NCBI GenBank assembly: GCA_050273025.1
Contig: CP158635.1
Span: 15,810,001-15,874,000 of the forward strand
DNA from: Cenococcum geophilum
Lineage: Eukaryota
Length of the DNA: 64,000 bases
Direction of reading: 5' to 3'
A program made the position numbers and the translations under genes. The notes beneath the pieces are model-generated. The model made no database searches, was not told the origin of the DNA, and worked only from the letters and a program-made list of their open reading frames with translations. This document shows, piece after piece, positions 3,632 through 64,000 of this stretch (position 1 is the first letter of the stretch; every line of letters begins with the position of its first letter).

Positions 3632-6000
3632 TTACTAAAATTATATTTAATAATAATTTTTAATATATTTTAATTATATATAGCTAGAATAGGTTTATAA
3701 TTAATTATAAATATATTTTAAATATATTAGAAATATGTTTTAAATATATTAGAAAAAACTTATTATTTACCTTTATAGGATTTTTTAAATAGGCTTTATA
3801 AATAGCTTAAACTATTAAAATTACTATAAAATAGGCTATAAATAGCTTATATAGCTCTTTAAGGTAATAATTATTATATTAAAAAATATTTTATAATATT
3901 TTTAAGATATATATATAAGAAAAGATAAGGTAGAAGGTAAGGTTAAATTAAAAGAGGCAGGGTGGGGTGTGGTTATAAGTCGGCTAGACTATACTAAAAA
4001 GTCGGCCTACTATAAGCGCTAATGCATAATCCCTATATAGGGTAGCCCTAGCTTAAAATATAAAGTCGTATAGTTAACCAAGCCCAAATCGCTTATTCTA
4101 CCACACAACTTACCTCCTAATTAAATTTTATTATTATAAGTAACTAGTTATAATATATTTAGAACGTATTTAGAACGTATTTAGAATATATTTAAAATAT
4201 ATTTAGAACGTATTTAGAATGTATTTAGAATATATCTAGAACGTATTTAGAATATATTTAATATATATTCTAATTTAAATAATTTTTTTAGGCCTATAAA
4301 ATAGTATCTTAGAGATAAATATAGCTATAAAATTTAATTAAGTTTCTAATATATTTTAATCTAATTTTAGGTACTTTTTAATTTAGTTTTAAATATATAT
4401 AATCTAAAGTTCTTTTATTATATTTTTAACTAAGAATTATTTAAGCTCTTTAGGTACTAAATAAAAGTTATTATCTATATAAGTAGAGGTTGTAAATAAT
4501 GCTATACGCAGAGCGTATGCGGTAGGGGCTATATAGCGTAGCGTAGGTCACCTAACTACCTACGGCCCGATAGATAGCCCAACCTTTACTACCCCTTTCT
4601 TTCTCCTTTAGTAGACGAGATAAACACAAATAAATCAAGAACTAGTTACCTTATATTGCAATTACAGTACCCCCCTAGGTAATACTAACAGTTATATTTA
4701 TTATATTTATTTAAAAAGTATATATAAATAAGTTTATAATATTTAAATATAATATAAACTAGCTAAATATATATTCCTAAGCTAATAATATTAGTTCTTT
4801 AAATATAAAGGGTAAAAAATAAAAATTTATAAATACCTTTAAATTTTTTTTTATTTTTTTAAAAGATATAAGGTCTAATATAAAGTAAGTAAATAGTATA
4901 GTTATAAGTCGGCTAGACTACGTTAAAAGGTTAGCCTACTATAAGCGCTAATATATAATCCCTATATAGGGTAGCCTTAACTTAAAATATAAAATTATAT
5001 AGTTAACTAAGCCTAAATCGCTTATCCTACTATATAACTTACCTCTTAATTAAAATTAATTATTATAAATAACTAGCTAGAATATGTTTAGAATATGTTT
5101 AGAATATATTTAGAACATATTTAGAACATATTTAGAATATATTTAGAATATATTTAGAATATATTTACTATATATTCTAATTTAAAATACTTCCTTTTAG
5201 TAATAAATAAAATAAAAAAAATTTAAGCTATAAAATAGTATATTAGAGTTAAATATAGCTATAAAAGTAAATTAAGTTCCTAATATATTTTAATCTAATT
5301 CTAATCTAGTTCTAATCTAGTTCTAATTTAGTTTTAAATATATTCTAATCTATTTTTAAATATATATAATTTAAAGTTCCTTTTGTTATATTTATTATAT
5401 TAATTTAATAAGTATAAATATATATATTTAAGCTAATAATATTAGTTCTTTTAAATATAAAGGGTAAAAAATATTATAAATACCCTTAGAATTTATAATA
5501 GTTTTTATAAAATATAAGATCTAATATAAAGAGAGTAAATAGTTTTAATATATATAATTATTATTATTAAAAGTAATAAAAGCTAGTATATAATAATAAA
5601 TATATTTATATTTATATTTATATTTAAGCCTTATTTATATATATAAAGTAGCTTAAACTACTAAAATTATATTTAATAATAATTCTTAATATATTTTAAT
5701 TATATATAGCTAGAATAGGTTTATAACTAGTTATAAATATATTCTAAACGTATTAGAAACATGTTTTAAATATATTAGAAAAAACTTATTATTTACCTTT
5801 ATAGGATTTTATTTTAGTTTAAATAGGCTTTATAAATAGCTTAAACTATTAAAATTACTATAAAATAAGCTATAAATAGCTTATATAGCTCTTTAAGGTA
5901 ATAATTATTATATAAATTTTTTTTATAATAGATTTAAGATAGATATATAAGAAAAGATAGGGTGGATGGTAGGGTCAGGTTGGGAGGGGAAGGGTGGGGT
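3632..6000. repeat. AT-rich mosaic of direct duplications with a 12-bp tandem array
   Basis: 3632-3968 matches 5660-6000; about 3965-4420 matches about 4895-5390; about 4770-4895 matches about 5420-5545. A tatttagaa(c/t)(g/a)-type 12-mer is tandem at about 4155-4260 and 5078-5165. Confidence 0.85.
4472..4690 (+). mobile_element. Solo LTR related to the Copia-like LTRs at 40937 and 43536, in the opposite orientation
   Basis: Starts tatctatataagtagaggtt and ends ccttatattgcaattacagtacccccctaggtaatactaaca, the reverse complements of the two ends of the 43536-44139 LTR. 5-bp TSD gttat at 4467-4471 and 4691-4695. The middle is diverged. Confidence 0.85.
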
Positions 6001-6875
6001 TTGGTGTGGCGGGCGGAGGTTTCGCCTATCGGGCCGACCTTTTAGCGTGGTCTGGCCGACCTGTACGCACGCGTAGACCGTGCACGAGTTACGTGCACGG
6101 GGCACCTGCATTGTAAATCTCTTCATCGTAGCTCAAGGGCCCTAGATCACAAAATAAACCTCAAGTCAAGATTATCAATCAATTAACCCATTTCATCAAT
6201 GAATAGCTCTATATGAGTTATCTGACAAGAGGAGGAGGCGCAGCGTTAGGAGAAAGGAAAGATGGAAGATAAGAGGAAAAGCAGTAAGAGAAATGGCCTT
6301 TTATAGTTAAGGTCGAGGGGCAGTCTTGGCTTAGCCGGGGTTAATAAGCGAGGGCGCCTTACTTATAAAGGAAGCCTCCATTTCCTAATGCGTAGTCTCC
6401 ATCTTATTTTTTACTAAATAAAAAGTGTTTAATAAATTTTATATAAATTAGACAATAGGATAATAGGATAATAGAATAATAGGATAATAAGACGCTAGGA
6501 CCCTATAGAGATCTATAAAGGTAGAAGTTCCTACCTAGGTAGGATATTAGATTTCCCTTCTAATTTTAATTTAATTTATTTAGCCTATAACTCGCCTTCT
6601 TTATAATTTCTAATTAATTATAAATTGCAAGCGCTAAGCCGCTAGTTCGCCTACTTGTAAGCCTTCTATAAGTATTCTTTATACTAGCTTATAGCTGTCG
6701 CTAACCCTACTAGGCGCCGTTAAAGCTCCTACGCCGCTTATAAGCCGCTTCCCTAGCCCTACTAGAACTAATTTACCTCTACTACACTAAGTGTATAGCT
6801 ACCGCTAGGCGGGCTATCTATAGTAAGTAGGCTAACCGTAATTATAGGTACTGCTAACGACTAAATAAGTTATAC

Positions 6876-7058
6876 TGTTATAGTGCTATAATAAAGTAAA
6901 CTAAATAACTACGTTATAGTATAAGGAAAGAAGGTAGAAAGGGGGTATTGTATATAAATAGTAGGGCCAGCCGCTAAGTCACTAGTAGTGGGCTAGCTAA
7001 TAGTAGGAAATAGTATAAGACAGTATAAAATAGTATATATTAGGTTAGTGCCGTAACA
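6876..7058 (-). repeat. 3' LTR of D
   Basis: tgttatagtgc...gccgtaaca; direct repeat of 13753-13939; abuts the polypurine tract. Confidence 0.93.
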
Positions 7059-7330
7059 GTACTCCTTTCCCCTAAATAGTATAAGCTTTATAGTGTGGGA
7101 ATTAAATAAGCAACTTAATTGTAAATTTATGGAAATCAAGAGGTATATATATATAAAATGGTAGCTAAAATAGGAACAGTAATCTGCAAGCAATATTGAT
7201 CTGCGATCAATATATAGGGTGGTGTTAAGGCTGTCTCGGCAGCACCCGTAGTCGGTTACAAATAGTTTAGTCCCTAAACTAAATAAATAACTTAAAAATA
7301 GGCAGTATACGGGGTTGCCTATTTCTTACC

Positions 7331-7535
7331 GTAAAGATATTAGCTTTACTTACCGCCCTTAACTAAGCTAATAGCGATTTTCTATACTGGGCATAGAAAA
7401 TCCTAATTAGTTAGTTTAGTAAGTAAGGTCGGCAGAACTTTATACCGCTACCTAAATCGGTCCGCGTGGCGTTTCTTAGTAAGAATTTAGCCAATTAGAT
7501 AACTTTAACTGCTAGTTAAAGTTCTATAACATCTT
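7331..7535. promoter_or_regulatory. Conserved 3'-UTR palindrome module in D (also in F and G)
   Basis: Palindromes gattttctat...atagaaaatc (7376-7402) and aactttaac...gttaaagtt (7501-7523); CCAAT at 7491-7495. Function is inferred only. Confidence 0.5.
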
Positions 7536-10500
7536 AACTACTACAAATTTTAATACGGTAATCGGCCGCAACCTTAGCGTAACTTTTCCTTATCTTATAC
7601 CTAGTTTAGGGGTTTTAGCTTTTTAGGGTGTTGCTTATAAAAGCGCTATATAGCTTATTTATAACCCTTTAGGTCTTCCTCTAGCTGCTAGGTTATATCT
7701 TTATAATATTTCTATTTAATCTTATAAGTTAGGCCGTAGGGGTCTTCGTTATATATATTAAGGATTTTCTTAAACTTCTATTTATCTTCTATATTACCGT
7801 TATTATCTCTCTCTACTACTCGTCCTTATATATTACGGCGCTTTATAGTATTAATATTTGCTTAGCTAAGGATCTCTTTAACAGCCTAAAGGCGGACCTT
7901 AGATATATAAAAGGATTTATTTACTTAAATATAGTCTAGGAGGTCTACTATAACTACCCCTTAGTATACTGCGAGTACGGGGTACAGGCCGTCCTATTTA
8001 TTATCCTATTTTTTTTTAGGTTTATTTATCTTTATATTTTCTAAGCTAACTATAACTATATCGCCTTCGTAAAATAACACGCTCTTATCCCTATAGGTAT
8101 TAGTATTATCTTTATAGCGTTACTATAAAATCTAGGCTAGGACTTTAAGCTATATTAATATCCGCTTAAAGCGGTTAGCTATAGAGTATACGCAGAGGAA
8201 CTCCTTCTTTACTTATGCTAATAGTATTAGTAGGTAGGAGCCAGCTAGCTTAATTCTAAGGTAAGGATTAAAGCTATAGTTTATAAAAAACAGGGAGATA
8301 CCTATACTCTTATTAACTTAGTTATTTATAGCAAACTTAATAAGTGGCAGGTAGTTAACCTAGTTGTTTTATATAAAGCTAACAAAAGTATAAAGGTATT
8401 TATTTACGGCAGCGTTAATAATTTTAGTTTAGCCGTCTATTTTTAGGTGTTAGGCTAAGCTTAATTATAAGATTATCTTAAGGCGTTTACTTAGTTATTG
8501 CTAGAAGTCGCTAATAAATTATATACCGTAATTAGAGATAATCGTGCTTAGTATACTGTAAAGCTTATATACGTTATTAACAAAGCTATTAACTAGCTCC
8601 TTTATTAAGAGTCCTATTACTAAAATAAGGTATTATATTTTAGTTAGGCAGTCTATAATAATAAGGATATATTTATATACCTTACTATAGCGTTAGTATA
8701 CCAGCAGCGTTATAATATAGTTAATTAAGATATTAGTCTATAGGTGGATAGGTAATTTTAGTATCTTTAAAAAAACTAGGTGGGATAGAACAGGGGGTCT
8801 TAGTATAAAAGTATAGGGCATAGTTTTTAACAAAGGTAGCTATAAACTAGGAGATTTCTAGCTACCAGTATATTTAGTTTAAAAGGTTAAAAGTCTTAAC
8901 CTAGCTAGGGTAACTAGCGAGGCCGCTACTATAAAAGTAATAGGTAACTTTTAGGTAAAGGTTTAGGGCGTTAGGGATAAAGAGATATTAGTAAAAGTAG
9001 ATCTGTTTATTAACAATACTATATTCTAACTTATTATAATAGAGTAATTTCCTAATCTTCTTTAGCTAACAGCGAGCTTTCTAATTATATAGGGCCGCCA
9101 CTATATCTTTTACAAGTTCATTTTCCTAGTATCCTAGCTAAATTAACTTATTTAGTAACTTTTCGGCTATTTTAGGGTCTAGAGCGGCTATAAACTCCGC
9201 GTTATTAAAGTTGTGGGACTTATATAGTAATTCTTCTAAGATTATAGGGTTAACTTTTTAGGGTGGTATAATAACTTAGGCTTAGTAGCGGAGGCGTTTA
9301 TTATTAGCGTCCTTAGGCCTTATTCCTAGTAGCTAGCTTAGGGCATTAGGGAGCGTAGCTTTACTACTAAGTCTATATATAATTATAAAGTTAAACTATA
9401 AAAGAAACTCTGCCTACTAGACTTAGCGCTAATTTAGCTACTTAGTAATTATAAACGTCTATAGGTTCTTATGGTCGGTAATAATTTTAAACAGCTCCTT
9501 AGTCCCTTGCAGCTTAGGACGCTATTCCTCTAAAGCCTTAATAATAGCTAAGAGTTCTTTATTATAGATCTTATAGTTATACTCTAGCGTAAAGTACTTT
9601 ATAAAGAAGAATATAACCAGTCTTAATTTACCATTATTATTATATTAGGAAAGGACTTCACTAAAAGCCTAATTTAATATATCTATCTCTACCACTATTT
9701 TCTTTATATAGTTATAGTATGCTAGTACTAGTACTAAAGTAAAGGCTCCCTTAAGGGCCTTAAACGATTTAGCTTATTTTGGTCCCTATAGCTATCTAAT
9801 ATCCTTCTTTAGGAGTTTTATTATAGGTATAGTAACGGCAAAGTAGCCTTAGATAAATTATTAGTAGAACTTCGCGAAGCCGAGAAATTATTATAGTTCT
9901 TTAATTAATATTAGGTCCTTCTATTCCTATAAGGCCTATACTTTCTTAGGGTCTATAGTTATACTATTAGTTAAGATTATTAAGCTAAGGTATTTTGTTT
10001 TAGTAGGGTAGAACTTAAACTTATTAATATTAATCTAAAGTCTAGCATTACCAAGTCTTTAGATAACTTTATTTATATACTTAGTATACTTAGCGCGTAT
10101 TTTAAAAAAGACAAGGACGTTATTAAGGTAGGCAGTATAGTAGTTATTAAGGGCGTTATATAGAATATAGTTAATATAGTTTTAAAATATAGCGAGTGTA
10201 TTATAGAGGCCAAATAATATAACTAGTATCTTATAGAGTCTAAACTGGGTAATAAATGCTATAAGCTACTTATAGTCCTTTATAATCCAGATCTAGTTAA
10301 ACGTAGCAATTATATTAAGTTTAGTAAAGTACTTAGCACTATAAAGTGCATTAAGTGTCTTATAAATTAGTAGCAGTAGGTACCAATTTTTAATAGTAAC
10401 TATATTTAGGCCTTAGTAGTTATAGCAGATTTATATACTACTGCTAGGCTTAGTAGTAAGGAGGAGTAGTATAGTAGCTAGTAAGGTTAATTCGCGGATA

Positions 10501-13500
10501 AAACCCTTATCTAGTATCTTATTAATCCACTTCTTTATATACTTAAGTTTAGTAGGTAAAAGTAGTTAATTTTTATAGTACGGGGCCTAGTTTCTAGGGA
10601 TAATCTTAATTTTATAGTCCTATAGTTAGTAAGGGGGCAGCTTATCTATATTTTTAGGGAAGAAGTGCTTAATATATTTATAATACTTCTTTAGTAGGCG
10701 TTATAGAATATCTTTACGGGTTAATCCTGGTTTGCCTTTTAGGAATTTTTTAATATTAGTATTAACTATCTTCTAATATAAAAGCTTAGGCTTAGTTTTT
10801 AAATTTATCTTAAGGAAGTTATAAAAATAGGGGGGGGGCACTTTACAGGCTTTCTTTATTATATAGTCGCCTTCTACTAGCTAGCGGAAAGACCTTTTTA
10901 ATAGGTTTAGTACTTCTATTAGGCCTATAGGCAGCTCTTTAAGTAGCTATTAGTGCTTATCTTATTTAACTAGTTCTATTAGCTCCGCTATATAAATCCT
11001 TATTACCTTTACGTCTTTTTATTTATAGAACCGGGTAAAATTAATAGCATAAGTATATTTAATATTGTCTAAGTTAGGGCGTATCTAGTTCTCTAGTACT
11101 ACGGCTAGGCTAGTATAGCTTAGTTAGCCTAGGGGGGCGGAAGCAAGGCGGTGGCCCTATATAGTATACGCGGGAGATAGGTATAAGGTTAGGTATTATA
11201 GTGGCGCGGTTTCTATTATCCGGGTTTTAATAGTTCTATAACCAGTCCTTACTATAACGCGAGCTATAGTGTACGTATATAGCATATAGCTTAGTTTTAG
11301 GTATTAGGCTAGGCGACTAGGGTTTAAATAGTGCCTAGGTTAGGGTTAGATTTTTAATAATAGCGGCGTAAAGCGGACCTTCTTCCTTAGTCTTAGCAGG
11401 GCTAGCTAGCCTATTATTTTAATCTAAAGTGCTAGGGTAGTCCAGTCTTCTACTATTTTATTACTTTATAGCTATATAGGCTTTATATATAGTCCTAGGC
11501 ACTAGGCTTAGTAGTACTAAGTATCTATATAGGGCGTCCCTACTACTGTTGGTTATCCCCCACAGGAGGTAGTACCTAGAGTAATAGTCTAAGTTAAAGC
11601 GGATTTTAAGTTTCCTAAAGCTAGGACAGGGCTTATACTTCTAAAGCTAAGGTATACCTAGGATAATTAGGGTAGTAGGTAAGAGTTTAGTAATAAAAAA
11701 GAGTATAGCTTTAGTATAGAGGCCAATTAATATTTAGGTGGTAAAGTAGTCTATAATAAGCGAAGTTAGGATACTATTTATAAGGCGTAGTAGCCTAGGT
11801 GCTAATAGCTTCTTAATTATAACGTTATACTTTCTTATAATAGACTCTATATTAATAAATGCTATTATAGTACTACCGGAGTCTACTAGGCTTACTATAT
11901 TAATATAAACTTAGGGGTATAGATTATATAATAAGGAGAGTTAGGTTTAAATAAGGATTAATTTCTTATTACTATTTACTAATCTAAGATTAAGTAGCAG
12001 CTTACTAATAAAAAGGACTAATTAATCTAGTAATAGGGACCTAATCTTCTTATCTTCCTCCTTATATAGTTTAAACACTTAAACGCAACTTAGTTTAAGG
12101 GTTTACCTTTTAACAACTAGGGTATAGAGCTGTTTTAGTAAAGCGGTCTAGTATCTATCTAGCTAGCGGTATCGGTCTTAGTTTTAGTTGGGGTATAGAA
12201 AAATAATACCTTACTAATAACGTGGCCGTATTTGTATTCGCTAGCGCGGAGTTACTAATACTGGGCGTTATTAATAGGTTAGGCTCCTATATAGGGTATA
12301 GTTTAAAGTAACTAAGCCATAGGGTTAAAGGGGGGGGGGTTGTCCGCTATAGCTATAATAGGCTCCGCGGTTACCGCGTTTATAATAAACTTTATAATTA
12401 CCGCATCCGCGGTTATTAGTTCGCGTCGTTTAATAGGGTAGTATTAGGACTAGGTTTACTATTTTAGCGGGGTTATAGGCGTTCTTTTAGTAGCTAGGCA
12501 GGCCACGGATAAAGTATAATCTATTATTAACGCGGCGCTTACGCTCCATATCTAAAATTCTATTAAGGTTTATAGGTTCTCTAGTTACTACTAGGGTTAG
12601 GGTTAATATAGGGGCAGAGGCTTAGATAGGTAGGCGGTAGTTAGCGTTCTTCTTAAGGTTGGCTTAGTATATATAGTTTGCAAGGTTTTTAGCAAATATA
12701 TTTATCTACTTACTCTAACTTATATAATTACTATTATTAATTTTATAGGTAAGTTTAAGTACTAGCTCTTCTATTTTTAGAGAGATAAACTTTTAAAGTA
12801 GGTCCACCTTCTATTTATTTATTTTCTTAACGCGGACTATTAGCTTATTAAGCTCTCCCTTTTAGGACTAGTAATTACGCTCGCCCTAAGGGAAATGGTT
12901 AAGCTTATTCTTTATAACCTAGGTTATATTAAGGACCTTATAGTAGGCAGTAAGGTTTTTAAGTATATCTTCCTTAGTGGGCCATTTCTATATAGATATA
13001 TTGTTTAGGTTCTCGTATATAAGCTCTAGGCCCTACTTAATAAACTTATAGGCCTTATTCTCTAGTATATCTAAGATATAAAAGATCTAGGACTAAACTA
13101 TATTAAAGTAATCCCGGTCCTGGTTAAAGACTCCTTTAATCTTAATATACCAGGTCTTAAAATTAGCTTATTATTTTAGCGGGGTACCTTTTCCGCTAAA
13201 TATTAGTGGGTCTTTAAATCTCCGTTTTTTCTACTAGGTTACTACCGTTGTTATAGGGGTTAATTGTTTTAGAACGGCAATAGTCTCTATCTAGGAGTTA
13301 ATAGTTCCTATCTAAAAAGTAATAAGGGCACTAAGGTTTTCGTTAGCTTTTTTATTAGCGGTGTTTATATTATATATACACTGTAGTCCTACTTTAATAT
13401 TGTTAAGGAACTCGTTGGTATAGTTAATAAGGGTAAGGTAAGCTTTACTAAGCTTAAAGGTCTTAAGGTATAATAAGGAGCGGCGGATTATCTATATAAT

Positions 13501-13752
13501 ATTAGGGTATATCTCTATAAAGAGGTCTGCAAAAACATTACAGGGGTTTTAGGTTTTAGCCATTTTAGTATTATTAGTATTACCTATTTAGGCGCTAGGT
13601 AAAAACTAAGGATTATTCTAAAATTATACTAAAGATATATTAGTTTTAGTAGAGGCGCGCGTAGGTCGCGATTACTTTAGGGTAAAGGTTAATTGGCTAG
13701 GGTATAGGGAATTAGTGATTGTAATAAGGCGTAAATTAGAGATACTATAAAC

Positions 13753-13939
13753 TGTTATAGTGCTATAATAAAGTAGACTAAATAACTACATTATAATATA
13801 AAGAGGGGAAGAAGGTAGAAAGGGGGTATTATATATAAATAGTAGGGCCGGCCGCTAAGTCACTAGTAGTGGGCTAGCTAATAGTAGAAAATAGTACGAG
13901 ATAGTATAAAACAGTATGCGTTAGGTCAGTGCCGTAATA
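13753..13939 (-). repeat. 5' LTR of D
   Basis: tgttatagtgc...gccgtaata; direct repeat of 6876-7058. Confidence 0.93.
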
Positions 13940-16317
13940 TATACTAAGTAGTAAGTTTAAGTGCGTTAGTTTAGGTTCTAATAGCTAATAGACTAGGTTC
14001 CTAAGGCCTTTTATAGCTGCCTAAATAAGCTACTTACCCTTATTAATAGGGCTAAACGCCGGTGGGTTATTAGTGGGGACACGGCTAACCTTAATTCTTA
14101 CGTCGCTACCGCCTAGGAGTCCTTTATAAAGGATATTAAGGCCTTAGTACGCACTGGCGCTAAGTATTATTTCCACTAGCGCCTAAAGGGCGAAGACTTT
14201 CCCCTACTCTAAGTGCAGGAATTATAGGCCATCTATTATACTTTTAAAGGAATTCTTAACGTAATACACGCTTTAGTATATATTATAGCGTAAGTATTTC
14301 GCCGTTATAGCGTATACTAATAGTACCTATAGCCTAATATGCCTCCTATTATAAGGGATAAGGAGGAGAATAAGGGTAAGGAGGATAAGGAGGAGAGAGA
14401 GGAGGATAAGGAGGAAGAGGAAGATAAGGAGGAGGAAGGAGGGGAAGAAAAAAAGGATTTAGTAGAGCTATAGAGTATCTATATTTTTATTAGCGTACTA
14501 CTATTACTCTACCATCGTTCCGTCGTCGCCCTACTAGTAGGGTATAATCCTAGTTATAATTAAAAGTTTTTTATTCTCCTACTTACTTTCTTTTCTATTT
14601 ACCCTTTAGGATAAAGTAACTATTATATATCTCCTTTGCGTCCTTATTAATATCCTCTACTAGGACCTATTTATTATACTTTTCTAGCTAGTCTTTTTAC
14701 TTAACTAGGTACTATAGGGTTTGGTTACGTCCCTTTCTTCTATATACTTCTTCTACCTTATATTAGTCCTTTTAGTCCTTTTAATTATTTAGCTTAATAG
14801 GCCCTAGTAAAGGGTCTCTAATAGTACCTTTATATTATTTATATAGCTTTAGTAAGCTAATATAGAATACTAAGTAGATATAGTAAGACATAGGTAGATA
14901 TAGCTAGTATGCTTACTTTCTAACTAGTTTGGCTATACTAAAAGGTCTAATAAAGCGTGCTGTAAGTTTCTTACTTAGCCTTTTTAGTTTAAGGTTCTTA
15001 GTTAATAGTAAGACTAGATCCCCTACTTTATATACCTATAGTTAGTAATAATAATTATAGTATTTCGCCTATACCTTAGTAGTACTTTTCTAGCGTTTTG
15101 CTAGCGCTTTGTATTTAAGAGATATTTTTTTAATTCTCTTAAAGGCGGCTAGAATAGAACTACTATTATCTACCTAGACCTTATATTCTAAACGCGGGTA
15201 AAACCTATAGTAGGTATAGAACGGGCTTATACCTATTATGCTATATTTAGTATTATTATAAGCGAATTCGGCTAGTAATAAAAGGCCTACCTAGTTGCTT
15301 TACTTTTTATTACAGAATATACAGAGGTAATACTCTAGGGTTTAGTTCTGGCGTTCTATTTACCTATCCATTTATAGGTAAAAGGCCGTACTTAGCCTAT
15401 ATTTTATCTTTATAGTAAAGTATAGCTCTAACTAGAACTTACTAGTAAAGATACTACCGTAATTAAATATAATCCCCCTAGGGGCTCTAAAACGGCGTAC
15501 TACTTTATTAAAAAAGAAATCCGCGAGTTCGGTTATAGTAATAGTTTTTACTATAGGTAGATATAAGGCTATCTTAGTATAGCGGTCGACTATTATATAT
15601 ATTACGTTATATACCTTCTTGCCTTATTTACTAGGTAATAGGCCTATAATAAAGTCTATTATAATTTCCTACTACGGCTAGTCTAGGTAAGATAGCGCTT
15701 AAAGCTTACTATAAGGGCGATATTAAGGTATATATATATATATATTGGTATATATTATAGGTAGAGATATAGTTTATAGCGTCCGTATTTATATTAGGCT
15801 AGTAGTATTTACATAAAAGGAGATCTAGAGTCTTTTTCTTACTAAAGTGGCTAGCTAGGGTATTATTGTGGTAGATCTATAGGATCTTTATATAAACTGC
15901 TGGGTCTAGGGGTATATATAACCTCCTATAGTAATAAAGTAGTTTAGCGGAATTAAACTACTATACTAGCTTTAAGTAGGCGCGTTAACAGCGTCTTGTA
16001 GTATCTACGCTGTTGCTGCGCTTTTATAGTATAAAGTTATCTTTAGTTTAAAGTCCTTTAATAAGCTTAATAACTGTTTCCATATTAGACTTATAAGCAC
16101 TCTCTTAAGTACTGGCTTCTTTAACTTAGGTCCTTATTACACGCTACTTAATAGTATATATATAAGTTGCCTAATTAAACTGTAATACTATATAGCCTAG
16201 GCGTACCGCTATTAGGTTGCTAGCTTATAGCTATAAAAATAATACCTTTATAGAAGGCTCGCTTTCTTATATATCTAATAGGACTTTTATCTTAGGTTAG
16301 TGGCCCTATATTCCTAA

Positions 16318-23888: not shown

Positions 23889-26800
23889 TATAATATGCTA
23901 CTAGGTGCCATCCATCTTAATATTTTTATATAAAGTATGCCCCTAGTATATAGTCTAATGTATCTATTTTTATAACCGTTTTTAGTCCTAGTTAATAGAT
24001 CTTAAGAACTGGCTCCTAGGTAAATAACTCCTTAACTGTCCTAAAGAGTTCTCTTTGTTCCTCTCCCTATACTTATAGTTCTTCTTTCTTTATTAATCGC
24101 ATAAATAGCTTAATATTCTTTAACTATTACGCTATAAACCTTCTATAGTAATTATAAAACCCTAGGAATAATCTTAACTATATAACGTTCTCTAATTTTT
24201 ACTAATTTACTATAGCCTTAATCTTCTTTAGATCTATGCTAAGTTGGCCTAGTTTAATAATAAATCTAATAAAATTGGTCTTCCTAGTAAAGAACTCGCA
24301 TTTCTTAATTACTACTAGTATCTATTCTTCTTATAGTCTCTTTAAGACCCATTTAATGTGTTCTCCGTATTCTTCCTTACTTATTAAGTAGATAATAATA
24401 TCGTTAAGATATACTATAATAAATTTATCTAAGTATTCTCCTAATATATTATTAATACGCTTTTGGAACGTTGCTAGTATATTTATAAGCCTAAATTATA
24501 TAACTAATAGTTTATATAGTCCTTCCTTTAACCTAAAGGCTGCCTTTTATTTATCGCCTTCCTTAATTCTAATTTAATAGTATACCTATCTCAGATCTAT
24601 CTTCGTAAAGATTTATACGTTGCCTATTCTATCTTAGATTTCGCTAATTAAGGGTAAAGGATACTTATCCTTCCTAGTAATACTATTTAACTGTTTATAG
24701 TTAATATACAGCCTTAGTTTACTATTTTTCTTTAGTATAAATAGTACTAGATAACCCGCTAATAACTGCAATAGTTTAATATATCCTTTTCGTAAGTTTT
24801 CCTAGACAAACTCTTTTAATACTCTACCTTCTTCTTCGGTAAGCTTATAGATTAAAAAAAACCTTAAACTTATTCCTAGTTTTAATTCTATCTTATAGTC
24901 CTATATTATATACTTTAATAGCTTTTTACTTTTTAGTAACTATAGTTTCTTACTATACTTATAGTATTTCTTTAGTATATAACTTAAGCCTTACTTAGTC
25001 TCTTTATACGTCGCTCTAACCTAATACTATATTAACTTAGCTTATTATTATATCTTGCGGCATTAAGTATCTCTAATATTAACCTAACCTATAACCTAAT
25101 TAATCTTTAGATTATATTCCTATAACTAAGGCATTTCTAGTACTACCTTATTATTTCCTAATAGTAATATATTAAAAGACATCTTAATTTATTTTCCTTT
25201 AATAGTTAACTAAATAGGTCCTATTTTAAGATTAATAATACCTCCTCTATAGGCTATTAGATCTCCTAAAATCATTACTAATAGGTAAAAATACTCCTTT
25301 TTCCTATATAGTAACCCCATTCTTTTAACTGTTACTAATAAGATATAGTTCCTTATTGCTCTACTATCTATTAATGCTTTAAACTGCTAATCTTACTATT
25401 TAATTTATAAATTTAGGTATTATCCTTAAATTCCTTTAAGGGTTTAAGGCTCTATTACTAGCTTCCTCTAGTTTTATAAACCTCTACTTTTCCTAATTAT
25501 TAGCTGCTTAATCCTATTTATACTTAGTCTACTTTTAGCTAATACTTAGTTCGCTTTTTATCTTTAATATGCTATAGATATATATTCTCTAGGCATTCCC
25601 ACCACTATTATCCATCTAGGCATTCTTCTATAAGGAATTTTTCTAGCTAAAGTATTAAGTTTCCTAACTCCTAAACTTCTATTAGATGCTAGCTATATAT
25701 ATACTTAGCATTCTAGTATTTTTATTCCTTAGTTATCTAATATATTCTTATAGGATATTTTTAATACTTATTTTTAGGTGCTTTATATATATTATACGCA
25801 TTATCTACGTACATAATCTATAATAGCGTATAATATACTTAGTATCTTAAGTTAACTCTTAGCTCGTCTTTATTCTTAAGTTTAAACCTCTATTATATTA
25901 ATCTAAATGTTATAACTTTATTTATAGGTACTAAGATACGTCTCTTACTTCTCTAGTCCTTTAAACATTTCTTTAGATCTTTTAATGTTATAATTAAGGC
26001 TCCTTTAATATAATTTATCGCCTTTTCTATAATTGGGTGGTCTTAAATAACTTTTTCGTCTAATTATATATAGAAATCTTCCTACTTATTATTGTGCCTT
26101 TATTTATACTACTTTTAGTATAGCTATTAGAGTATATATAGCTTATCTATAAGGAAGGATCTTCTTATTACTACATCGTAACAGCCCTTTATGTGTTATT
26201 CTTCGAATCTAGTTAGAATCCCTAGATCCTCTTCTTATTCCAGTTTAGTTAGCTATTTAGCTCTTAATATACCTACTCTCGGCCTATTAGTAATTCTTTA
26301 TATAGATACTTTATTTTTTATATATCCTAATATACTATATCTTTTATCTAGTTTCTATTCTTACTATAAGGCGATTCTTGCTCTAAATTCCTCTATAGTT
26401 TCTTTCTTTTCACGTCTTATAAGTAGATCTTTAAAGTCTTCCTACTTTCTAATCTTTATATTAACTTTTTAATCTTTAGGCCGAATACTATATTCCCCTA
26501 ATAAGTCCTCTAGGTTTATATATCTATCTCCTAGTCTAGTTGCTATTTATACTATAGATTCTCTAATCTAACTAATAGTCCTTATTTATGTCTTAAAGTC
26601 TTAGTTCTATAGAATTCTTAATCCTAAGCTTACTTCTAACTTAAGCTTTACTCCTACCTTAGTCTAACTAGGCTTATTAGGTATTTTTATCTTATCTTAA
26701 AAGTCTTAAATCTTACTTATTTTGTTTTAAGAGTTTTATGCCTATAGGAAACTCTATCCCAAGCTTATTTATATATCTTTAAACTAAGCTACTACCCTAC

Positions 26801-28469: not shown

Positions 28470-28894
28470 TATAATAGAACCTTATAGTAAAAACTATGGT
28501 AGGCTTATTATTAGGCTAGGTATATAGGTAAAGTAAGTTAAAGTTAATAATTATAATAATAACTAGTGGAGTAGTTGCCTAATAGATTAACTCTAATTAT
28601 ATTCTGAAAATTACTATAAAGAAGGAGCTATATAGGTAGGGATTATAGTCCTTTAAATACATAACTGTACTCCTAAGAAATCCTTTTTATATATAATATA
28701 CGTGTACTTTATCTACTCTATTACAGATTATATAGATTATATAGATTATATAGATTACCCTATATAATCTTAGTTACTATTTCTCGTTATATAGTTCTAC
28801 TAGCTCTATCCTAAACTGTACCTAAATTAACTAACTAGCTTCTTCTAACTCTTCTCTAAGTAGTCGTAATATTGTATTTAAAGCGTCCGTAACA
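28470..28894 (-). repeat. 5' LTR of A
   Basis: Ends gcgtccgtaaca, followed by TSD cctaa. Confidence 0.93.
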
Positions 28895-29498
28895 CCTAAA
28901 GTCCTTTAGAGTAGTAGTAGTATAATATCTTCTTCTAGCGGACCCCCTACGCCTAGGGGTTGCCTTAACGGCGCGTTTATAGGGTTTGTTTTTCCCGCCC
29001 TATACTTAATTATAAAGTTATAGGTAGCTAATGCTATAGCCTATCTGGCTTACCGTCTATTAAGGGCTTTTACTTTTATAAAACCCTTTAGATTATTATA
29101 ATCTATAAGCACTTCTAGACAGCTTAATAGCCCCTTACTATAGTGTCTCTAATGCTTAAAAGCCTCTATAATAGCTAGTAGCTCCTAATTATAGGTCTTA
29201 TAATTGCGCTTTATTACTAAAAGCTTTCTAAACTAAAAGGCTATTAGATGCTAAAGGCCGTCTTTAAATAGCTATAATATAATAGCTGCTAGGCCTTATA
29301 TTAAGGCATTAGTCTCTAATTAAGTTAGTAAGCCTAGTGTATAGTATTATAAAAGCGGCGCCGTTATAAAAGCGTTATAGAGCTAGTGTATTGCCTACTC
29401 CGCCTCTTTTAGCCAACTAAAAGGCCTAGCTTTATAGCCGTTCTTTACTCCTTTATAGAGATTAGTAATAAGCTTTATAATAATTAAGTACTTATAGA

Positions 29499-29922: not shown

Positions 29923-29969
29923 CAATTACTACCTAGTTATGGTATTAAATATAGAAAGTTAAATAATAT

Positions 29970-32895: not shown

Positions 32896-33135
32896 AACTA
32901 ATAGTAGAGCCTTAAACCCTTAAAGAAATTTAAAAACAATACCTAAATTTATAAATTAAGTAGCAAGATTAACAATTTAAGGCATTAATAGATAGTGGAG
33001 TAATAAGGAACCATATCTTACTAGCAGTAGTTAAAAAAATAGGTTTACCACACAGGAAAAAGGAGCACCTTTACCTATTAGTAATAATTTTAGGAGATCT
33101 AATAGCCTATAAAGGAGGGATTATTAACCTTAAAA

Positions 33136-47509: not shown

Positions 47510-47617
47510 AATGAGTAATAATATTAACTAAATTAATTAGACGGATATTATACCTCTAGTAAATAACTTAAAGATATTAGGAATCTTTAAGGACAAAAAT
47601 AAAAAGGAGGGAGATAG

Positions 47618-50928: not shown

Positions 50929-52121
50929 ACGGAATACCCTAGCCTTATAGTTAAAGCGTAGGCGAAAAGTAAGCGCCGCTGCTAAGATATAATCTATACT
51001 AAAGCGGAGCAGAGGACGTCCTAAGGGATTAAAGAATAAGTAACGCTTATAGTAAGAACTGCGGCATACATATAGGGTAAAGTTTTAATTTATTAGTATT
51101 TTATGTAAGCCACACTTTAATGTAACCCGGCTATAGCGTACGCTAGTAATAAAGCTTAATTTAAAAAGCACCCTTCCTAGACCTAGTTTGTCACTCTATA
51201 CTAGCTTAGCAGATTATTTATATTAGAAAATAGGCCTATTTATAACTAGGGTCTATAACCTACTAGTAACCCGCTAGTAGTAACCTATACTAATAACTTA
51301 TATACTATTCTATATATAAGTAACCTATAACCTACCTATAAAGTATATACAGCGCTACGCCGGTATAGCGTAAAGTTAAAGTAGGGTTAGCGGTGGATTT
51401 AATAGGTATATAGCCTTACTATCTATAAATCTGGCTATATATAAATAACCTATAACCTATCTATAAGGTATTAGCGACCTACCTATATAAGTAAGCTTTA
51501 GAATACTTCTAATAGTTTATTAAATTTAGATAATAACGTTAAGCTATAGGCTCTAGGCGTTAAATAGACTAATTAGGATTTTCTATCCCGGGGATAAAAA
51601 ATTACTATTAGCTCGGTTAAATACGGGGGAGTCTTAATAAGGCAAATTTAACTAATTAAATAACTTTAACTGCCGGTTAAAGTTCTTTAATATCTTTATG
51701 CCGCGTATATGCACTACCTATCTCTCTATACGCAAAATTAAAATACTCTTTCCCCTCTAAATTTTTTCCTTACTAAGGGTTTTTGTGGGGTTTTATTAAG
51801 GTTTAAGTATATAAAGGATTGGGGATAACCCTTTTTAAAGGGGGGGGCATTATTAGGCAAAACCTAAGTAGATAGTTATATAGGCGTAAGGTATAGGTAA
51901 CCCTAGGGCAACCTAGAGGTAACTCACCTATAAGGCATGTACTCTATACATACCTAGGGAAAACCCTTCCTACCTCGTATATAGACTCCTTCTTTTCCCT
52001 TAAGGATTTGTCTCTGTCTATATAATATACCCTATTATTCTATTATTGGACTCCCTATTTATATCCTTACCTTATATATACCTACTTCTATAATATAGAT
52101 CTACCTTCTCTACTCTTAATA
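50929..52121 (+). mobile_element. 3' fragment of LTR retrotransposon F (AT-hook ORF end, 3' UTR, polypurine tract, LTR)
   Basis: KRSRGRPKGLKNK at 51002-51040; palindrome module 51568-51697; G-run polypurine tract 51837-51850; candidate LTR 51851-52121 (tattagg...cttaata), directly followed by Mutator coding sequence. Confidence 0.65.
51568..51697. promoter_or_regulatory. Conserved 3'-UTR palindrome module in F
   Basis: The same two palindromes at 51577-51603 and 51662-51684, each preceded by ctaatta. Confidence 0.5.
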
Positions 52122-54334: not shown

Positions 54335-57300
54335 TTACCCCCCCCTTTAGTAAAGCCTACCCTTAGGCTTTATATATCCGTATTTGTAACCAACTACTGG
54401 ACCTTATATATTACCCCGTTTTACCTACGTCAGCACTACCCTTATATGTCTTGGATACGTTTAAAATAAGTTATAGGTCTTAGAGTTAGGGGTCTATTTT
54501 CATGTATTTATACTATTTAATTTCCATAGATTTACAATTAAGTTGCTCGTTCAATTCCCATACACTGTAAAAGCTTACAGTATTACTTATATAGGGCATT
54601 CTTATCTTTATATTCTTCCGGTAGCCTATTATCTTTACTATACTAGCACTCTATCTACTTATCTAGGTACTTTAGGGGTCCTAGTTTATTAGGGTAACGG
54701 CTATAGAATTTTTAAAGCTTATAGGGACTGCTAATAAAGTTCTATATAGGGTACTAGGTAGGGTCTAGGTTATAGCCTTTTTAACTAACGTAGTACTTTA
54801 GCGTTTTCCTTACTAGTTTACAGGCTAGCACTTCTTTAATTTCCTATTTATTGTCGCCACTAACCTAAATCGGTAGGAGAGGTTTGTTCTTTTATCTAGG
54901 TAATAGGTTATTTATAGCTTTTTATAGCTTATCTAGTAAGAAAATAGGGTAAACCTTAATTAAATCCGGGAGCTTTACTTTATATAAGTTACCTATCTTC
55001 TTAAGGACCTTATATGGTCCCGCTATCTAATAGTCTAGCTTATAGCTAGGCCGTTCCGTCTTTTAGTTCTTTATTATAACCTAAACTATATCGCCTATAG
55101 TAAAGTCAGGTTCGCGCCTATACTTATTTACCTACTATTCTATTAATTTCTAGGCCTTTTTTAAGTTTATATAGGCTACCATTTAGGCTTCCTCTAAGCG
55201 CTTAGCGTACTACTAGGCTTCCTTATAAGACAGTTTCTTATATACGGTCTATAGTCCTTCTAGTCTATCCCAGTTAAAGCTTATTTAGGGTAAATACCCC
55301 ACCCCTAGTTAGATAGGTGCAAATCCTATAAAGTTATAGGGTAAGGTTACCTGGGCGTAGTCTATTAGGGATAGCAGTTTGCCCTAGTTATTCTAAAAGT
55401 GGTTAATAAAAGGCCAAAGTCTCTAATCTAAATATTAATTTATAATCTCCGTCTACTGTCTATTTAGGGGTAGTATACTATAAAAAGCTTTAGCCTAATA
55501 CCTAGGATTTAGGTAAACTTGTTTTAAAAGGCTAATATAAATTATAGGCCGTAATTAGATATAATAGTATCTAGTAGTCTATAAATATGGTAAACGTAAT
55601 AGATATACAGTTGGGCCGCCTCCTTAGTATTAATATTTTTATAACAGGGAATTAAAAACGGGCGCTTACTAAAGCAATTAATTAAAATCATAACTATATT
55701 ATATCCGTCGCGGTTTATAGGTAGCTTATAAAAGTCTATAGAGATATATTACTAGGGGCGGTCAGGTATTAGGAGAGGTTTTAATAATCCTAGGCTAGTA
55801 ATAACGGTCACTAATAATCTTACAGGTTTTATTTTTTAGGTAGGCCGTAGAGACCTAGGTATATGCTTTAGTAATAAGCCAGGTTTATAAGTTCCGTTCC
55901 TTTACTACTACTAGCCGTTCCTAGTGCTTAAGCAGTCCATTTTTAAGGGACTATAAGCTAGTAATATCCTTTACCTTTTTGCGGTATTCCTGTAGAGAAG
56001 GGTCTATACGGTTTACTTATAGTAGTTTGTTAATAAGGTTAAATTCTATAGGGTTGATAGGATATATCTTAGCGCTTAAAGATTTAGTACTTAGTTCTTC
56101 CTATATCTAAGGGTTAAGGTGCTCTAGTTATAGTAGCGTCTAGGTTTATAATAAGATCTTCGCGGCTATTTAGTTATTTAGGGCTTATTTACGTTTTATA
56201 AGAGCATCCGCATAGTTAGTAGCGCCTAGCCTATATATAATTAGGAAGTTAAACTGGAATAAAACGTCTGCCTAGCGCGCTTACCGGGCCGTAAGGACCT
56301 TAATTATTATAAAGTATTCTAGGGCCTTATAATCTAAAACTACCTAGATAGGCTTAAGGGTCCCTTTTAGCTATACTCGCCAGTGCTAAAAGCTAAAGAT
56401 AATAGCCAACATTTCTTTATTGTGGATTAGGTAGTTTAGCTTAGCATCTATTATAGTCTTTAAGTAGTAAGTAATATGGTACTATTCTCTGCCCGTCTGC
56501 TTCTAGAAATAAATACTAGCAATAATACTATTTAAGGCATCCGTTTCTAGCATTAAGGGCCATTCTAGGTTAAAGTAGGCAAGTAAGGGAGTGGAGACTA
56601 GTTATTTCTTAAGCTTATTAAAAGCCTGCTTATATACAGTGTTAAAGTAAAAGGGCCGGTCCTTTATAGTAAGGCGGCTAAGGGGCTAAGTAATCCTCCT
56701 ATAGTTCTTAATAAAGCATTAGTAGAAGTTATAAAAGCCTAAGAATAACTATATCTCTTTTACGGTCCGTAGTGGTTTTTATTAATTAATTACGGCCGTC
56801 TTTTCTAGGTTAGCCTTAATTCCGTTTATACTAATAATAAACCATAGGTACTTTATATAATTTATACTAAATTCTAACTTCTTAATATTAGCCTAAAGGC
56901 TAGCCTTATAGAGTTATTATAAGACCTTATAGACGTACTCCTTATATTCTAACTCGTTTTTAAAGTAAATTATAATATTATTTAGGTAGGCCGTATAGAA
57001 GTCGTTAAGGTAGTTAAAGAGTACATTATTTATATATTGCTAGCACGCAGCTAGTCTATTAGTTAGTCTAAAAGGAAGTACTTTATACTTATATAATCTA
57101 TATTAAGTCCGAAATATAGTAAAATCTATAAATCTAGGGTTTATTTTAATTTGGTAAAAAGCCCAATAGATATTAGGCTTTATAAATACCTTAGATCTAT
57201 TTATTTGGGCCAGTATTTTATTAAGTCAGGGTAGTAGATAATGGTCTTTACGGGTTATATTATTAAGCTTATAGTAGTTAATATAGAAACAAAGTTCTTT

Positions 57301-63162: not shown

Positions 63163-64000
63163 TATAAGGGCGTAAAGAGACTTTAGGGAAGATTTAAAGG
63201 AATAATATAAATTCTATCTAAATCTAAGGGTATATAGCTCTTATTAGGAACAAGACATTATATAAAGAAGAGAAAGGAATAATAAGAGGATTATATAATT
63301 AAATAGTTAGGGGCTTAGTAGTCGATACGTATATATATACGCACGCGGTCTTTAACAGACTTTAATAGAATTTAATTAATATGGCAGAATTTAGCAGAAT
63401 TTAGTTAAAGCGTTAAAATTTATCTGTTAAGTATTTTACTAAGACATTCCTACTATAACTGGGCTAGTCCTATTATAGTACCCCCCCTTTTAGCTAAAGG
63501 TCTAAATAATTTAATTTTAGTTAAGACTTATAACTTATCGCGTATTATATTTTTGCGTTAAGTAGTAGTATAGGGTTTTGCCGGTTCTAATTATTAAGTA
63601 GGCTAATTAGGATTTTCTATACCCGGTATAGAAAATCACTATTAGCTTAGTTAAGGTAGTAAGCTAAACTAATATCTTTATAGTAGGTCTTAGCAAGGCA
63701 ATTCTAACTAATTAAATAACTTTAACCGGCGGTTAAAGTTCCTTAATATCTTATATATTACGTAATAACATTATAAACGTTGTAATATATTTTAAGTTTC
63801 CTACTATTATAGTTCGTATATTTATATTAGGTAGCAGTTATTTACCTTTATATTATATCCATCCAACTAAAGTAGGTTGTAAAGAATGGTCTTTATAAAA
63901 TTCTTAAACTAGGGAAGGCGTATTAGTTTTAATTTAGTTATAGGTTTCCTAAGTTTATATTTTATATCCTTCCTACTTAATAAGTAGTTTAAATTATTTA
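63163..64000 (-). mobile_element. 3' end of Ty3/Gypsy chromovirus G (LTR, polypurine tract, 3' UTR, chromodomain); continues past the window
   Basis: Minus strand KLLIK*EGYKI*T*ETYN*IKTNTPSLV*EFYKDH at about 63885-63990; C-run polypurine tract complement at 63481-63491; LTR ends about 63477. The LTR left edge (63163 or 63242) is uncertain. Confidence 0.75.
63558..63753. promoter_or_regulatory. Conserved 3'-UTR palindrome module in G
   Basis: The same two palindromes at 63611-63637 and 63718-63740. Confidence 0.5.

What the first reader, a model, noticed from the sequence alone, without database searches (positions are those of the whole stretch)
7331..7535. Twin-palindrome, CCAAT-like module shared by three Gypsy families in shuffled orientation
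Seen: D (7331-7535), F (51568-51697) and G (63558-63753) have dissimilar LTRs but share GATTTTCTAT-n7-ATAGAAAATC and AACTTTAAC-n5-GTTAAAGTT. Each palindrome has a ctaatta/ccaatta motif beside it, with CCAAT intact at 7491. F and G are collinear on the plus strand although the elements face opposite ways. In D a segment of about 125 bp (7331-7455) is the reverse complement of G 63558-63681 while the second palindrome keeps its orientation. Established: RRCCAATCAG is the HAP/NF-Y site and RIP would turn it into ctaattag. Inference: an orientation-independent DNA-level element (enhancer, nucleosome-positioning or boundary) exchanged between families, or an invertible cassette. A structured RNA role is the alternative.
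Basis: partly seen in the sequence, partly recalled or inferred. Interest (0 to 1): 0.75.

Follow-up and report, generated by a model that had tools for sequence, protein, structure and literature searches.

The report
Flipping palindrome cassette in Gypsy retrotransposon tails
Three dead fungal Gypsy retrotransposons share a 200-base non-coding cassette of two palindromes between the last gene and the end repeat, and it sits in a different orientation in each; this is a real but modest curiosity of how these elements evolve, not a shown CCAAT enhancer.

Summary
Both palindromes occur exactly three times, at the stated places. F and G are collinear on the plus strand. In D, 124 bp (7332-7455) is the reverse complement of G 63558-63680, while the second palindrome block keeps its orientation.

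All three copies lie in the 3' untranslated tail of Ty3/Gypsy-type elements, between the end of pol and the polypurine tract. D's host is shown directly. F's and G's hosts are inferred from their tract/LTR junctions.

In the element's own direction the cassette has three layouts. A further 87-bp tail block is inverted between two complete elements, D and E.

The blocks differ by 2-7% transversions, whereas LTRs and RT-RNaseH DNA between families are at shuffled level. That points to recent sharing or strong constraint.

The CCAAT reading is weak. CTAATTAG is no commoner than chance in this RIP-mutated DNA (6 seen, about 10 expected), and 1 of 6 palindrome-adjacent motif instances keeps CCAAT.

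A perfect palindrome reads the same both ways, so the flips do not argue for DNA-level action.

Best reading: a hairpin cassette exchanged between families. Its function is unproven, and no fungal genomes could be searched.

The parts
7332..7455 (-). D copy of block P1. It is inverted relative to G and F on the plus strand.
   Evidence: blastn against 63680-63558: 79%, 124 nt, E 2e-22. nhmmer 89 bits on the minus strand against 33 bits on the plus strand.
7376..7402 (.). D palindrome 1 (arms 10, spacer 7).
   Evidence: Hairpin z-score -5.1.
7474..7544 (+). D copy of block P2, in the same plus-strand orientation as F and G. It starts within about 10 nt of the end of D pol.
   Evidence: blastn against 63688-63761 (77%) and 51632-51696 (83%). 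nhmmer 57 bits against 17 reversed. The pol alignment ends at 7562.
7501..7523 (.). D palindrome 2.
7491..7498 (.). CCAATTAG, the only module motif that keeps CCAAT.
51537..51625 (+). F copy of block P1 (palindrome 1 at 51577-51603, 2 mismatches).
   Evidence: nhmmer 79 bits.
51632..51697 (+). F copy of block P2 (palindrome 2 at 51662-51684).
63558..63680 (+). G copy of block P1 (palindrome 1 at 63611-63637, arms 13, centre 1).
   Evidence: Hairpin z-score -5.6.
63688..63761 (+). G copy of block P2 (palindrome 2 at 63718-63740, arms 11, centre 1).
7062..7073 (-). D polypurine tract, directly before the 3' LTR.
   Evidence: Read. The junction aligns to the E, F and G junctions.
6876..7058 (-). 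D 3' LTR. Its partner 5' LTR is at 13753-13939. The target duplication GTATA lies at 6871-6875 and 13940-13944.
   Evidence: blastn 89.5%. Ends read.
7562..11925 (-). D pol (protease to integrase and chromodomain region), heavily RIP-mutated.
   Evidence: tblastn with P0003, residues 3-1460, in three collinear pieces. Pfam RVT_1 and RT_RNaseH.
7075..7158 (-). Block A in the D tail, next to the polypurine tract.
   Evidence: Matches E 54584-54498 in the inverted sense only: local score 85, against 19 direct and a shuffle maximum of 26.
54498..54584 (+). Block A in the E tail, next to the end of pol and inverted relative to D, although both elements are on the minus strand.
   Evidence: E orientation and the LTR pair 54079-54334 / 59944-60193.
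51838..51850 (+). F polypurine-like tract (G8 run at 51840-51847), followed by an LTR-like start at 51851.
   Evidence: The junction aligns to the E, G and D junctions (at most 2 of 300 shuffles reach the score), and its reverse complement does not.
63481..63493 (-). G polypurine tract (C7 run on the plus strand at 63481-63487). An LTR-like start lies at 63477 and runs leftwards.
   Evidence: The junction aligns to the E junction (0 of 300 shuffles reach the score).

Best explanation
The module is a non-coding cassette in the 3' untranslated tail of related fungal Ty3/Gypsy elements. The tail is the stretch between the pol stop and the polypurine tract. The cassette has two self-complementary units. 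P1 is about 124 bp, with a 27-bp palindrome inside a hairpin of roughly 40-bp imperfect arms. P2 is about 70 bp, with a 23-bp palindrome.

Shown:
- The position in D.
- The homology of the three copies.
- Three layouts in the element's own direction: G reads pol-P2-P1-tract, D reads pol-P2-inverted P1-tract, and F has the whole cassette inverted.
- A second tail block, A, inverted between the complete elements D and E.
- Much lower transversion divergence in these blocks than in the LTRs or pol DNA.

Inferred:
- The cassette acts, if at all, as hairpins or self-complementary duplexes in the genomic RNA or in the single-stranded minus-strand cDNA.
- A perfect palindrome has the same sequence in both orientations, so flips are tolerated.
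- Stable hairpins shared by co-packaged RNAs are natural sites for reverse-transcriptase pausing and template switching. That would move the cassette between families.
- The tail just upstream of the tract is made double-stranded last, which would make it prone to rearrangement.
- The CTAATTAG words are ordinary RIP-type sequence, not shown CCAAT boxes.
For: - Position. D pol aligns to an intact relative up to residue 1460 of 1482, ending at 7562. P2 starts at 7544, and the tract is at 7062-7073.
- Host direction of F and G. Their tract/LTR junctions align to the verified E junction. Of 300 shuffles, 0 (G) and 1 (F) reach the score. The reverse-complement control of F does not align.
- Orientation calls.
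- Independent inversion of block A between two complete minus-strand elements: score 85 inverted, 19 direct, shuffle maximum 26.
- Transversions. P1 2.4%, P2 7.0% (D against G), and A 3.6%. An element's own LTR pair shows 0.5-0.8%. Between-family LTRs and RT-RNaseH DNA show 17-19%, and shuffled controls about 15%. D and E pol are only about 40% identical in protein.
- Hairpin stability: z-scores of -5.6 and -5.1 for palindrome 1 in G and D, and -3.4 and -3.8 for the whole modules.
- Palindrome excess in the window. With arms of 9 or more, 23 are seen against about 8 expected. Several others lie in the D and E tails (7193-7213, 54351-54372).
- At one arm position F has C-G where G has A-T and D has G-T. 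This is a two-sided change that keeps the palindrome (columns 47/53).
- Mosaic exchange between related Tf1/sushi-type families is on record (PMC10085805, passages read).
Against: - Only three copies, all RIP-mutated and dead, from one window. Whether each orientation is a family trait or a one-off at that copy is unknown.
- E has no P1 or P2. The one outside relative that could be fetched (L001, 31% identity) has a tail of about 90 nt without palindromes. The cassette is therefore not needed by all such elements.
- No flanking inverted repeats explain the flips. The fraction of 500 shuffles reaching the observed score is 0.24-0.91 in 5 of 6 tests and 0.02 in one.
- The stems show no usable covariation. 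RIP hits both arms of a palindrome alike, so two-sided transitions are not evidence, and arm-to-arm copying could give the single two-sided transversion without selection.
- No Rfam family matches.
- No complementarity between the 5' leader and the tail beyond chance: the longest is 10 nt, reached by 24% of shuffles.
- F and G lack a recognisable pol in the window.
Confidence: 0.45

Rival explanations
1. Neutral by-product. The tail between pol and the polypurine tract is a tolerant, fast-changing region. The palindromes arose by snap-back or template-switch errors of reverse transcription, the blocks were shuffled and passed between families by recombination, and they do nothing for the element.
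For: E and the outside relative L001 lack the cassette. Orientation, order and spacing to the tract differ between copies (260, 140 and 68 nt). The window also has tandem-repeat arrays in similar non-coding stretches. Recent exchange alone explains the low transversion divergence.
Against: P1 and P2 stay adjacent in 3 of 3 copies despite two rearrangements. The palindromes are perfect in the least-mutated copy. One two-sided transversion keeps the symmetry.
Confidence: 0.25
2. One reading: a DNA-level, orientation-independent regulatory element (CCAAT/HAP-bound enhancer, nucleosome-positioning or boundary element) carried in the tail.
For: Full palindromes with an odd centre suit dimeric DNA-binding proteins. 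At the site beside palindrome 2, D has C where F and G have T in a CpA context, so the RIP-corrected reading there does contain CCAAT. The flanks fit RRCCAAT (read; the consensus itself is recalled).
Against: CTAATTAG is not enriched: 6 seen against 10.4 +/- 3.4 expected. Only 1 of 6 palindrome-adjacent instances keeps CCAAT, and the site beside palindrome 1 has no copy with C. CCAAT or ATTGG occurs 42 times in the window. The cassette lies 5-6 kb downstream of the element's own promoter; from general knowledge, fungal upstream activating sites rarely act from there. Orientation independence does not separate DNA from RNA for a palindrome.
Confidence: 0.12
3. P1, P2 and A are small independent mobile elements (foldback or MITE-like) that landed repeatedly, in either orientation, in the one part of a Gypsy element that tolerates insertions.
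For: P1 folds into a long hairpin, as a foldback element does. Orientation and presence vary between hosts. Similarity across otherwise unrelated hosts is high.
Against: The block ends show no terminal inverted repeats or target duplications in the alignments. P1 and P2 are neighbours in 3 of 3 copies, which repeated independent landing would not give. 0 of 3 copies lie outside a Gypsy tail, and a profile search finds no further copies in 64 kb of transposon-rich DNA.
Confidence: 0.08
4. A programmed invertible switch, flipped by a site-specific recombinase.
For: Segments are found in both orientations.
Against: D has no recombinase gene other than the retroelement integrase. Flanking inverted repeats are not significant. 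The copies compared belong to different elements, so they are not two states of one locus.
Confidence: 0.03

Closest known systems
Variable 3' untranslated region of LTR retrotransposons (between the last ORF and the polypurine tract)
   Same: Same place in the element. Non-coding, and differs in length and content between related families. In plants this region is known to gather repeats; I recall the Macas et al. 2009 paper and saw it only as a reference entry behind the term match.
   Different: Here the content is a pair of near-perfect palindromes kept across families, with inversions rather than tandem repeats.
Hairpin-associated small inversions in plastid non-coding DNA
   Same: A segment tied to a hairpin is found in opposite orientations in relatives. 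The review passages say that such inversions are likely facilitated by hairpin structures (PMC12371153, passages read).
   Different: Those are typically 4-50 bp loops between clear stem repeats. Here the inverted pieces are 87 to about 210 bp, and no significant flanking repeats were found.
Retroviral dimer-linkage palindromes (HIV-1 DIS, MoMuLV PAL sequences; recalled, not from a call)
   Same: Self-complementary, GC-centred sequences on A/U-rich stems. They would allow two RNAs that share them to pair, and they mark recombination-prone spots.
   Different: Those lie in the 5' leader. Here the palindromes lie in the 3' tail. The predicted hairpins have 3-nt loops, too small for a kissing loop. 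No dimerisation data exist.
Mosaic evolution of Tf1/sushi-type elements in fission yeasts
   Same: Related families show sharply different similarity in different parts of the element, which is taken as mosaic ancestry (PMC10085805, passages read).
   Different: There pol is nearly identical and the rest diverged. Here a tail cassette is similar while pol and the LTRs are diverged, and orientation changes.
CCAAT box bound by the HAP/NF-Y complex
   Same: One instance (7491) has RRCCAAT. RIP of CCAATCAG would give CTAATTAG.
   Different: No enrichment, one intact instance, alternative ancestors, and a position far downstream of the promoter.

Membership tests
Ty3/Gypsy LTR retrotransposon (host element D) | Pair of direct LTRs with a target-site duplication | tested here: met
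   6876-7058 and 13753-13939, 89.5% identical. GTATA on both outer sides (read).
Ty3/Gypsy LTR retrotransposon (host element D) | pol order: protease, RT, RNase H, then integrase | tested here: met
   Collinear tblastn to P0003 residues 3-1460 on the minus strand. Pfam RVT_1 E 1e-8 and RT_RNaseH E 8e-16.
Ty3/Gypsy LTR retrotransposon (host element D) | Chromodomain at the integrase C-terminus (chromovirus branch) | tested here: inconclusive
   The nearest intact relatives carry PF00385, and D aligns through that part. The Pfam scan of the D frame itself found nothing there.
Ty3/Gypsy LTR retrotransposon (hosts of F and G) | Recognisable pol next to the module | tested here: not met
   No tblastn hit better than E 0.5 in 51680-54100, 50400-51600, 60150-63600 or 63700-64000. 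G's pol would lie beyond the window end. Only the tract/LTR junctions support the assignment.
CCAAT box / HAP (NF-Y) site | CCAAT pentamer present at the motif | tested here: inconclusive
   1 of 6 palindrome-adjacent instances (7491). At that site D has C where F and G have T in a CpA context.
CCAAT box / HAP (NF-Y) site | Motif commoner than background | tested here: not met
   CTAATTAG 6 against 10.4 +/- 3.4. CYAATTRG 8 against 12.9 +/- 3.9, in 200 Markov controls.
CCAAT box / HAP (NF-Y) site | Bound by HapB/C/E | not testable with these tools
   Needs EMSA or ChIP.
MITE / foldback DNA transposon | Terminal inverted repeats at the block ends and a target-site duplication | tested here: not met
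   The ends of the 124-bp P1 block are not complementary, and no duplicated flank is visible. Flank tests give fractions of 0.24-0.3.
MITE / foldback DNA transposon | Copies outside LTR elements | tested here: not met
   0 of 3 copies in the window. The profile search finds no others. A genome-wide test was not possible.
Hairpin-associated small inversion | Inverted segment bounded by inverted repeats (the stem) | tested here: not met
   6 flank tests: 5 give 0.24-0.91 and one gives 0.02. RIP may have erased short repeats.
Site-specific invertible cassette | Recombinase gene and recombination sites | tested here: not met
   Only retroelement domains were found in D. Flanking repeats are not significant.
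Any curated RNA family (Rfam 15) | Match at the gathering score | tested here: not met
   0 matches in the whole window. 0 tRNA genes.
Retroviral-type dimer-linkage palindrome | Self-complementary sequence at a hairpin apex | tested here: met
   Full palindromes of 27 and 23 nt with GC-rich centres in G. This is a sequence property only.
Retroviral-type dimer-linkage palindrome | Location in the 5' leader; RNA dimerisation shown | tested here: not met
   Located in the 3' tail. Dimerisation is not testable here.

The most novel reading that the evidence does not exclude
The cassette is a trans-family pairing and recombination module. Its two perfect palindromes would let genomic RNAs of different Gypsy families pair and be packaged together. 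The cassette would then be both the hot spot and the cargo of inter-family template switching. That would explain why it is nearly identical in elements whose LTRs and pol are unalignable, and why it survives being flipped.
Probability: 0.15. Interest if true: 0.7.

Novelty: new variant of a known kind. Interest (0 to 1): 0.4.

Why it matters
If the pattern holds across a genome, it would show that the tails of fungal Gypsy elements are built from movable, flippable hairpin blocks that pass between families. That would be a concrete handle on how retrotransposon families recombine, and on which parts of the non-coding tail matter. It would also warn against reading transcription-factor boxes into RIP-mutated DNA, where TA-rich words such as CTAATTAG arise everywhere.

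Tried and rejected
- Rfam over the whole window gave 0 matches, and the tRNA scan gave 0.
It was redone in smaller calls (13, 18).
- Flanking inverted repeats as the cause of the flips: not significant.
- 5'-3' pairing between the D leader or LTR and the module. duplexfold on 230-490-nt pieces gave whole-length pseudo-duplexes that I do not regard as interpretable. The longest exact complement is 10 nt (TAGCCAATTA), reached by 24% of shuffles.
- Covariation as a test of RNA structure. It is uninformative with three copies, because RIP mutates both arms of a palindrome in the same context.
- MITE reading: no terminal repeats or duplications.
- The idea that F and G are the two LTRs of one element split by E. 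The spacing fits once E is removed, but the polypurine tracts face each other, and the sequences beyond the cassette do not match. Rejected.
- The idea that the F module belongs to the minus-strand Gypsy at 48042-50500. The module lies about 1.05-1.2 kb upstream of that element's gag start, and a plus-strand tract/LTR junction follows it. Judged unlikely, but not excluded.
- Outside copies.
No further copies could be gathered.
- Literature searches found no description of such a cassette.

Full report
**Setting.** The window is AT-rich (GC 0.33) and carries a strong RIP signature. TpA/ApT is 1.72, (CpA+TpG)/(ApC+GpT) is 0.40, and CpA and TpG stand at about a third of expectation. Open reading frames are destroyed: only 3 stop-to-stop frames of 60 aa or more exist in 6500-14500. 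Reading stops as X, the minus strand of 7000-13800 gives Pfam RVT_1 and RT_RNaseH. A database search with that stretch returns 330 proteins at E<=1e-5 among 3301 candidates. The best fungal-type polyproteins are 51-58% identical, and the named ones come from Chaetomium, Metarhizium, Monilinia and Pyrenophora. The window is therefore a nest of dead Gypsy-type retrotransposons of a filamentous ascomycete.

**The observation.** Both palindromes occur exactly three times, at the stated places, and 0 of 100 shuffles reach three matches. In the G copy they are full palindromes with a single-base centre, with arms of 13 and 11. Palindromes with arms of 11 or more number 6 in the window, against 0.83 in 100 Markov controls. 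Those with arms of 13 or more number 1, against 0.04.

- F and G are collinear on the plus strand.
- In D, 7332-7455 is the reverse complement of G 63558-63680 (79% over 124 nt, E 2e-22).
- D 7474-7544 matches G and F in the direct sense.
- The central 70 nt of the first block is a quasi-palindrome and aligns both ways.
- Profile scores still settle the orientation: 79-90 bits against 26-35 for block P1, and 57-63 against 17-25 for block P2.
- No further copy exists in the window. One weak P2-like hit lies at 59574-59604 (E 0.013).

**Where the copies sit.** A tblastn map with four intact relatives shows D on the minus strand, with pol from 11925 to 7562.

- D's LTRs are 13939-13753 and 7058-6876, flanked by GTATA on both sides. 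A polypurine tract lies at 7073-7062, directly before the 3' LTR.
- The D module therefore lies in the 3' tail. P2 begins within about 10 nt of the end of pol, P1 follows, and about 260 nt of spacer lead to the tract.
- E (54079-60193) is also on the minus strand, with an LTR pair, an ATATA duplication and a G8 tract.
- F and G have no recognisable pol beside them. For G, pol would lie beyond the window end.
- A C7 run at 63481-63487 followed by an LTR-like start reads, on the minus strand, almost like E's verified tract/LTR junction (0 of 300 shuffles reach the score).
- A G8 run at 51840-47 with an LTR-like start does the same on the plus strand (1 of 300 against E), and its reverse complement does not.
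- G or C runs of 6 or more are not rare here (26 in the window). This rests on the wider junction similarity, and I put the F orientation at about three in four.
- The minus-strand Gypsy at 48042-50500 (RT and gag) is a neighbour. Its gag start lies 1.05-1.2 kb from the module.

**Layouts.** In the host's own direction the three layouts are:

- G: pol side, P2, P1, tract.
- D: pol, P2, inverted P1, tract.
- F: pol side, inverted P1, inverted P2, tract, which is the whole cassette flipped.

An independent case supports the pattern. The 87-bp block A lies next to the tract in D (7075-7158) and next to the end of pol in E (54498-54584). It matches only in the inverted sense (score 85, against 19 direct and a shuffle maximum of 26), although both elements are complete and on the same strand. 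A second short piece (7250-7267 against 54381-54398) fits an inversion of the whole spacer, but scores at chance level.

**How similar the blocks are.** RIP adds transitions, so I counted transversions.

| Comparison | Transversions |
|---|---|
| P1, D against G | 2.4% |
| P2, D against G | 7.0% |
| P1, F against G | 4.6% |
| P2, F against G | 4.5% |
| Block A, D against E | 3.6% |
| The two LTRs of one element | 0.5-0.8% |
| LTRs of different elements; RT-RNaseH DNA of D against E | 17-19% |
| Shuffled sequence | about 15% |

D and E pol proteins are about 40% identical over 454 aligned residues. The tail blocks are thus far more alike than anything else these elements share. This points to recent exchange between families or to strong constraint at the nucleotide level. 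Mosaic ancestry is known in Tf1/sushi-type elements (PMC10085805, passages read).

**RNA or DNA?** The palindromes fold as stable hairpins: z-scores are -5.6 and -5.1 for palindrome 1 in G and D, and between -1.9 and -5.0 for the other four. The whole modules give z-scores of -3.4 and -3.8. In D, P1 extends to a hairpin with roughly 40-nt arms.

A perfect palindrome reads the same on both strands. The same hairpin therefore appears in RNA or single-stranded cDNA whichever way the block lies, and the flips do not favour a DNA-level role.

Covariation cannot help here. RIP strikes the same context in both arms, so two-sided transitions are expected without selection. One two-sided transversion in F keeps the symmetry, but arm-to-arm copying could also give that.

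**The CCAAT idea.** The logic that RIP turns CCAATCAG into CTAATTAG is sound. However, CCAATTGG gives the same product, and an unmutated TAATTA word is also possible.

- CTAATTAG is not enriched: 6 seen against 10.4 +/- 3.4 expected.
- CTAATTA occurs 35 times in the window.
- CCAAT or its complement occurs 42 times.
- Only 1 of the 6 palindrome-adjacent motif instances keeps CCAAT.

At the site beside palindrome 2, D has C where F and G have T in a CpA context. It is also not evidence of function.

**Mechanism of the flips.** I found no significant inverted repeats at the edges of the flipped pieces, and no recombinase. Hairpin-facilitated small inversions are well known in plastid non-coding DNA (PMC12371153, passages read), but they are smaller. 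The cause is open.

My inference is template switching at stable hairpins during reverse transcription, in the stretch upstream of the tract that stays single-stranded longest.

**What stayed unchecked.** I therefore cannot say whether each orientation is a family trait, whether solitary copies exist, or what the un-mutated sequence was. Six literature searches found no description of such a cassette. The library lacks most subscription journals.

**Verdict.** The best reading is a palindromic hairpin cassette in Gypsy tails, exchanged between families and tolerant of flipping. Its function is unproven, and the CCAAT enhancer reading is not supported.

Noticed in passing
7075-7158 and 54498-54584: An 87-bp tail block is shared by the complete elements D and E. 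It is inverted relative to the element, and sits at the opposite end of the tail: next to the tract in D, next to the end of pol in E.
   Followed up: yes
60141-60182 (minus) and 63382-63399 (plus): TGGCAGAA is repeated four times at the start of E's LTR (5 exact copies in the window against 0.26 expected). It recurs, in the opposite orientation relative to the LTR start, in the putative LTR of G.
   Followed up: partly
25224-28906 and 29486-33135: Two 3.7-kb copies of one element lie in inverted orientation only about 580 bp apart (87% identical). They form a very large palindrome inside the nest at 16314-48045.
   Followed up: no
62133-62726; 42608-42775: Tandem-repeat arrays lie in non-coding stretches: units of 8, 18 and 32 bp at 62133-62454, a 20/60-bp unit at 62518-62726, and a 21-bp unit at 42608-42775.
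   Followed up: no
7193-7213, 7301-7328, 54351-54372, 47567-47591: Further short palindromes (arms 8-9) lie in the tails of D, E and a third element, close to their polypurine tracts. Palindromes are about threefold over-represented in the window overall.
   Followed up: partly
59574-59604 (minus): A weak P2-like stretch (12 bits, E 0.013) lies about 340 nt inside E from its 5' LTR. It may be chance.
   Followed up: partly
13690-13699 and 7488-7497: The same 10-mer TAGCCAATTA occurs in D's 5' leader and, on the other strand, beside palindrome 2 of D's module. Complementarity of this length is reached by 24% of shuffles.
   Followed up: yes
3633-3973 and 5659-6005: A direct repeat pair of about 345 bp (89% identical) lies 2 kb apart with internal repeats. 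It may be a short non-autonomous LTR element.
   Followed up: no
13945-16314 and left of 6871: D is inserted, with a clean GTATA duplication, into the 3' part of another minus-strand Gypsy element (integrase at 15096-15942). That element's pol-end region resembles E's (14666-14719 against 54625-54677).
   Followed up: partly
L001 (whole locus, 2373 bp): A contig filed under a cyanobacterial MAG encodes a eukaryote-type Gypsy integrase and chromodomain, a polypurine tract, an LTR and gag. It is most likely contamination of the bin.
   Followed up: no
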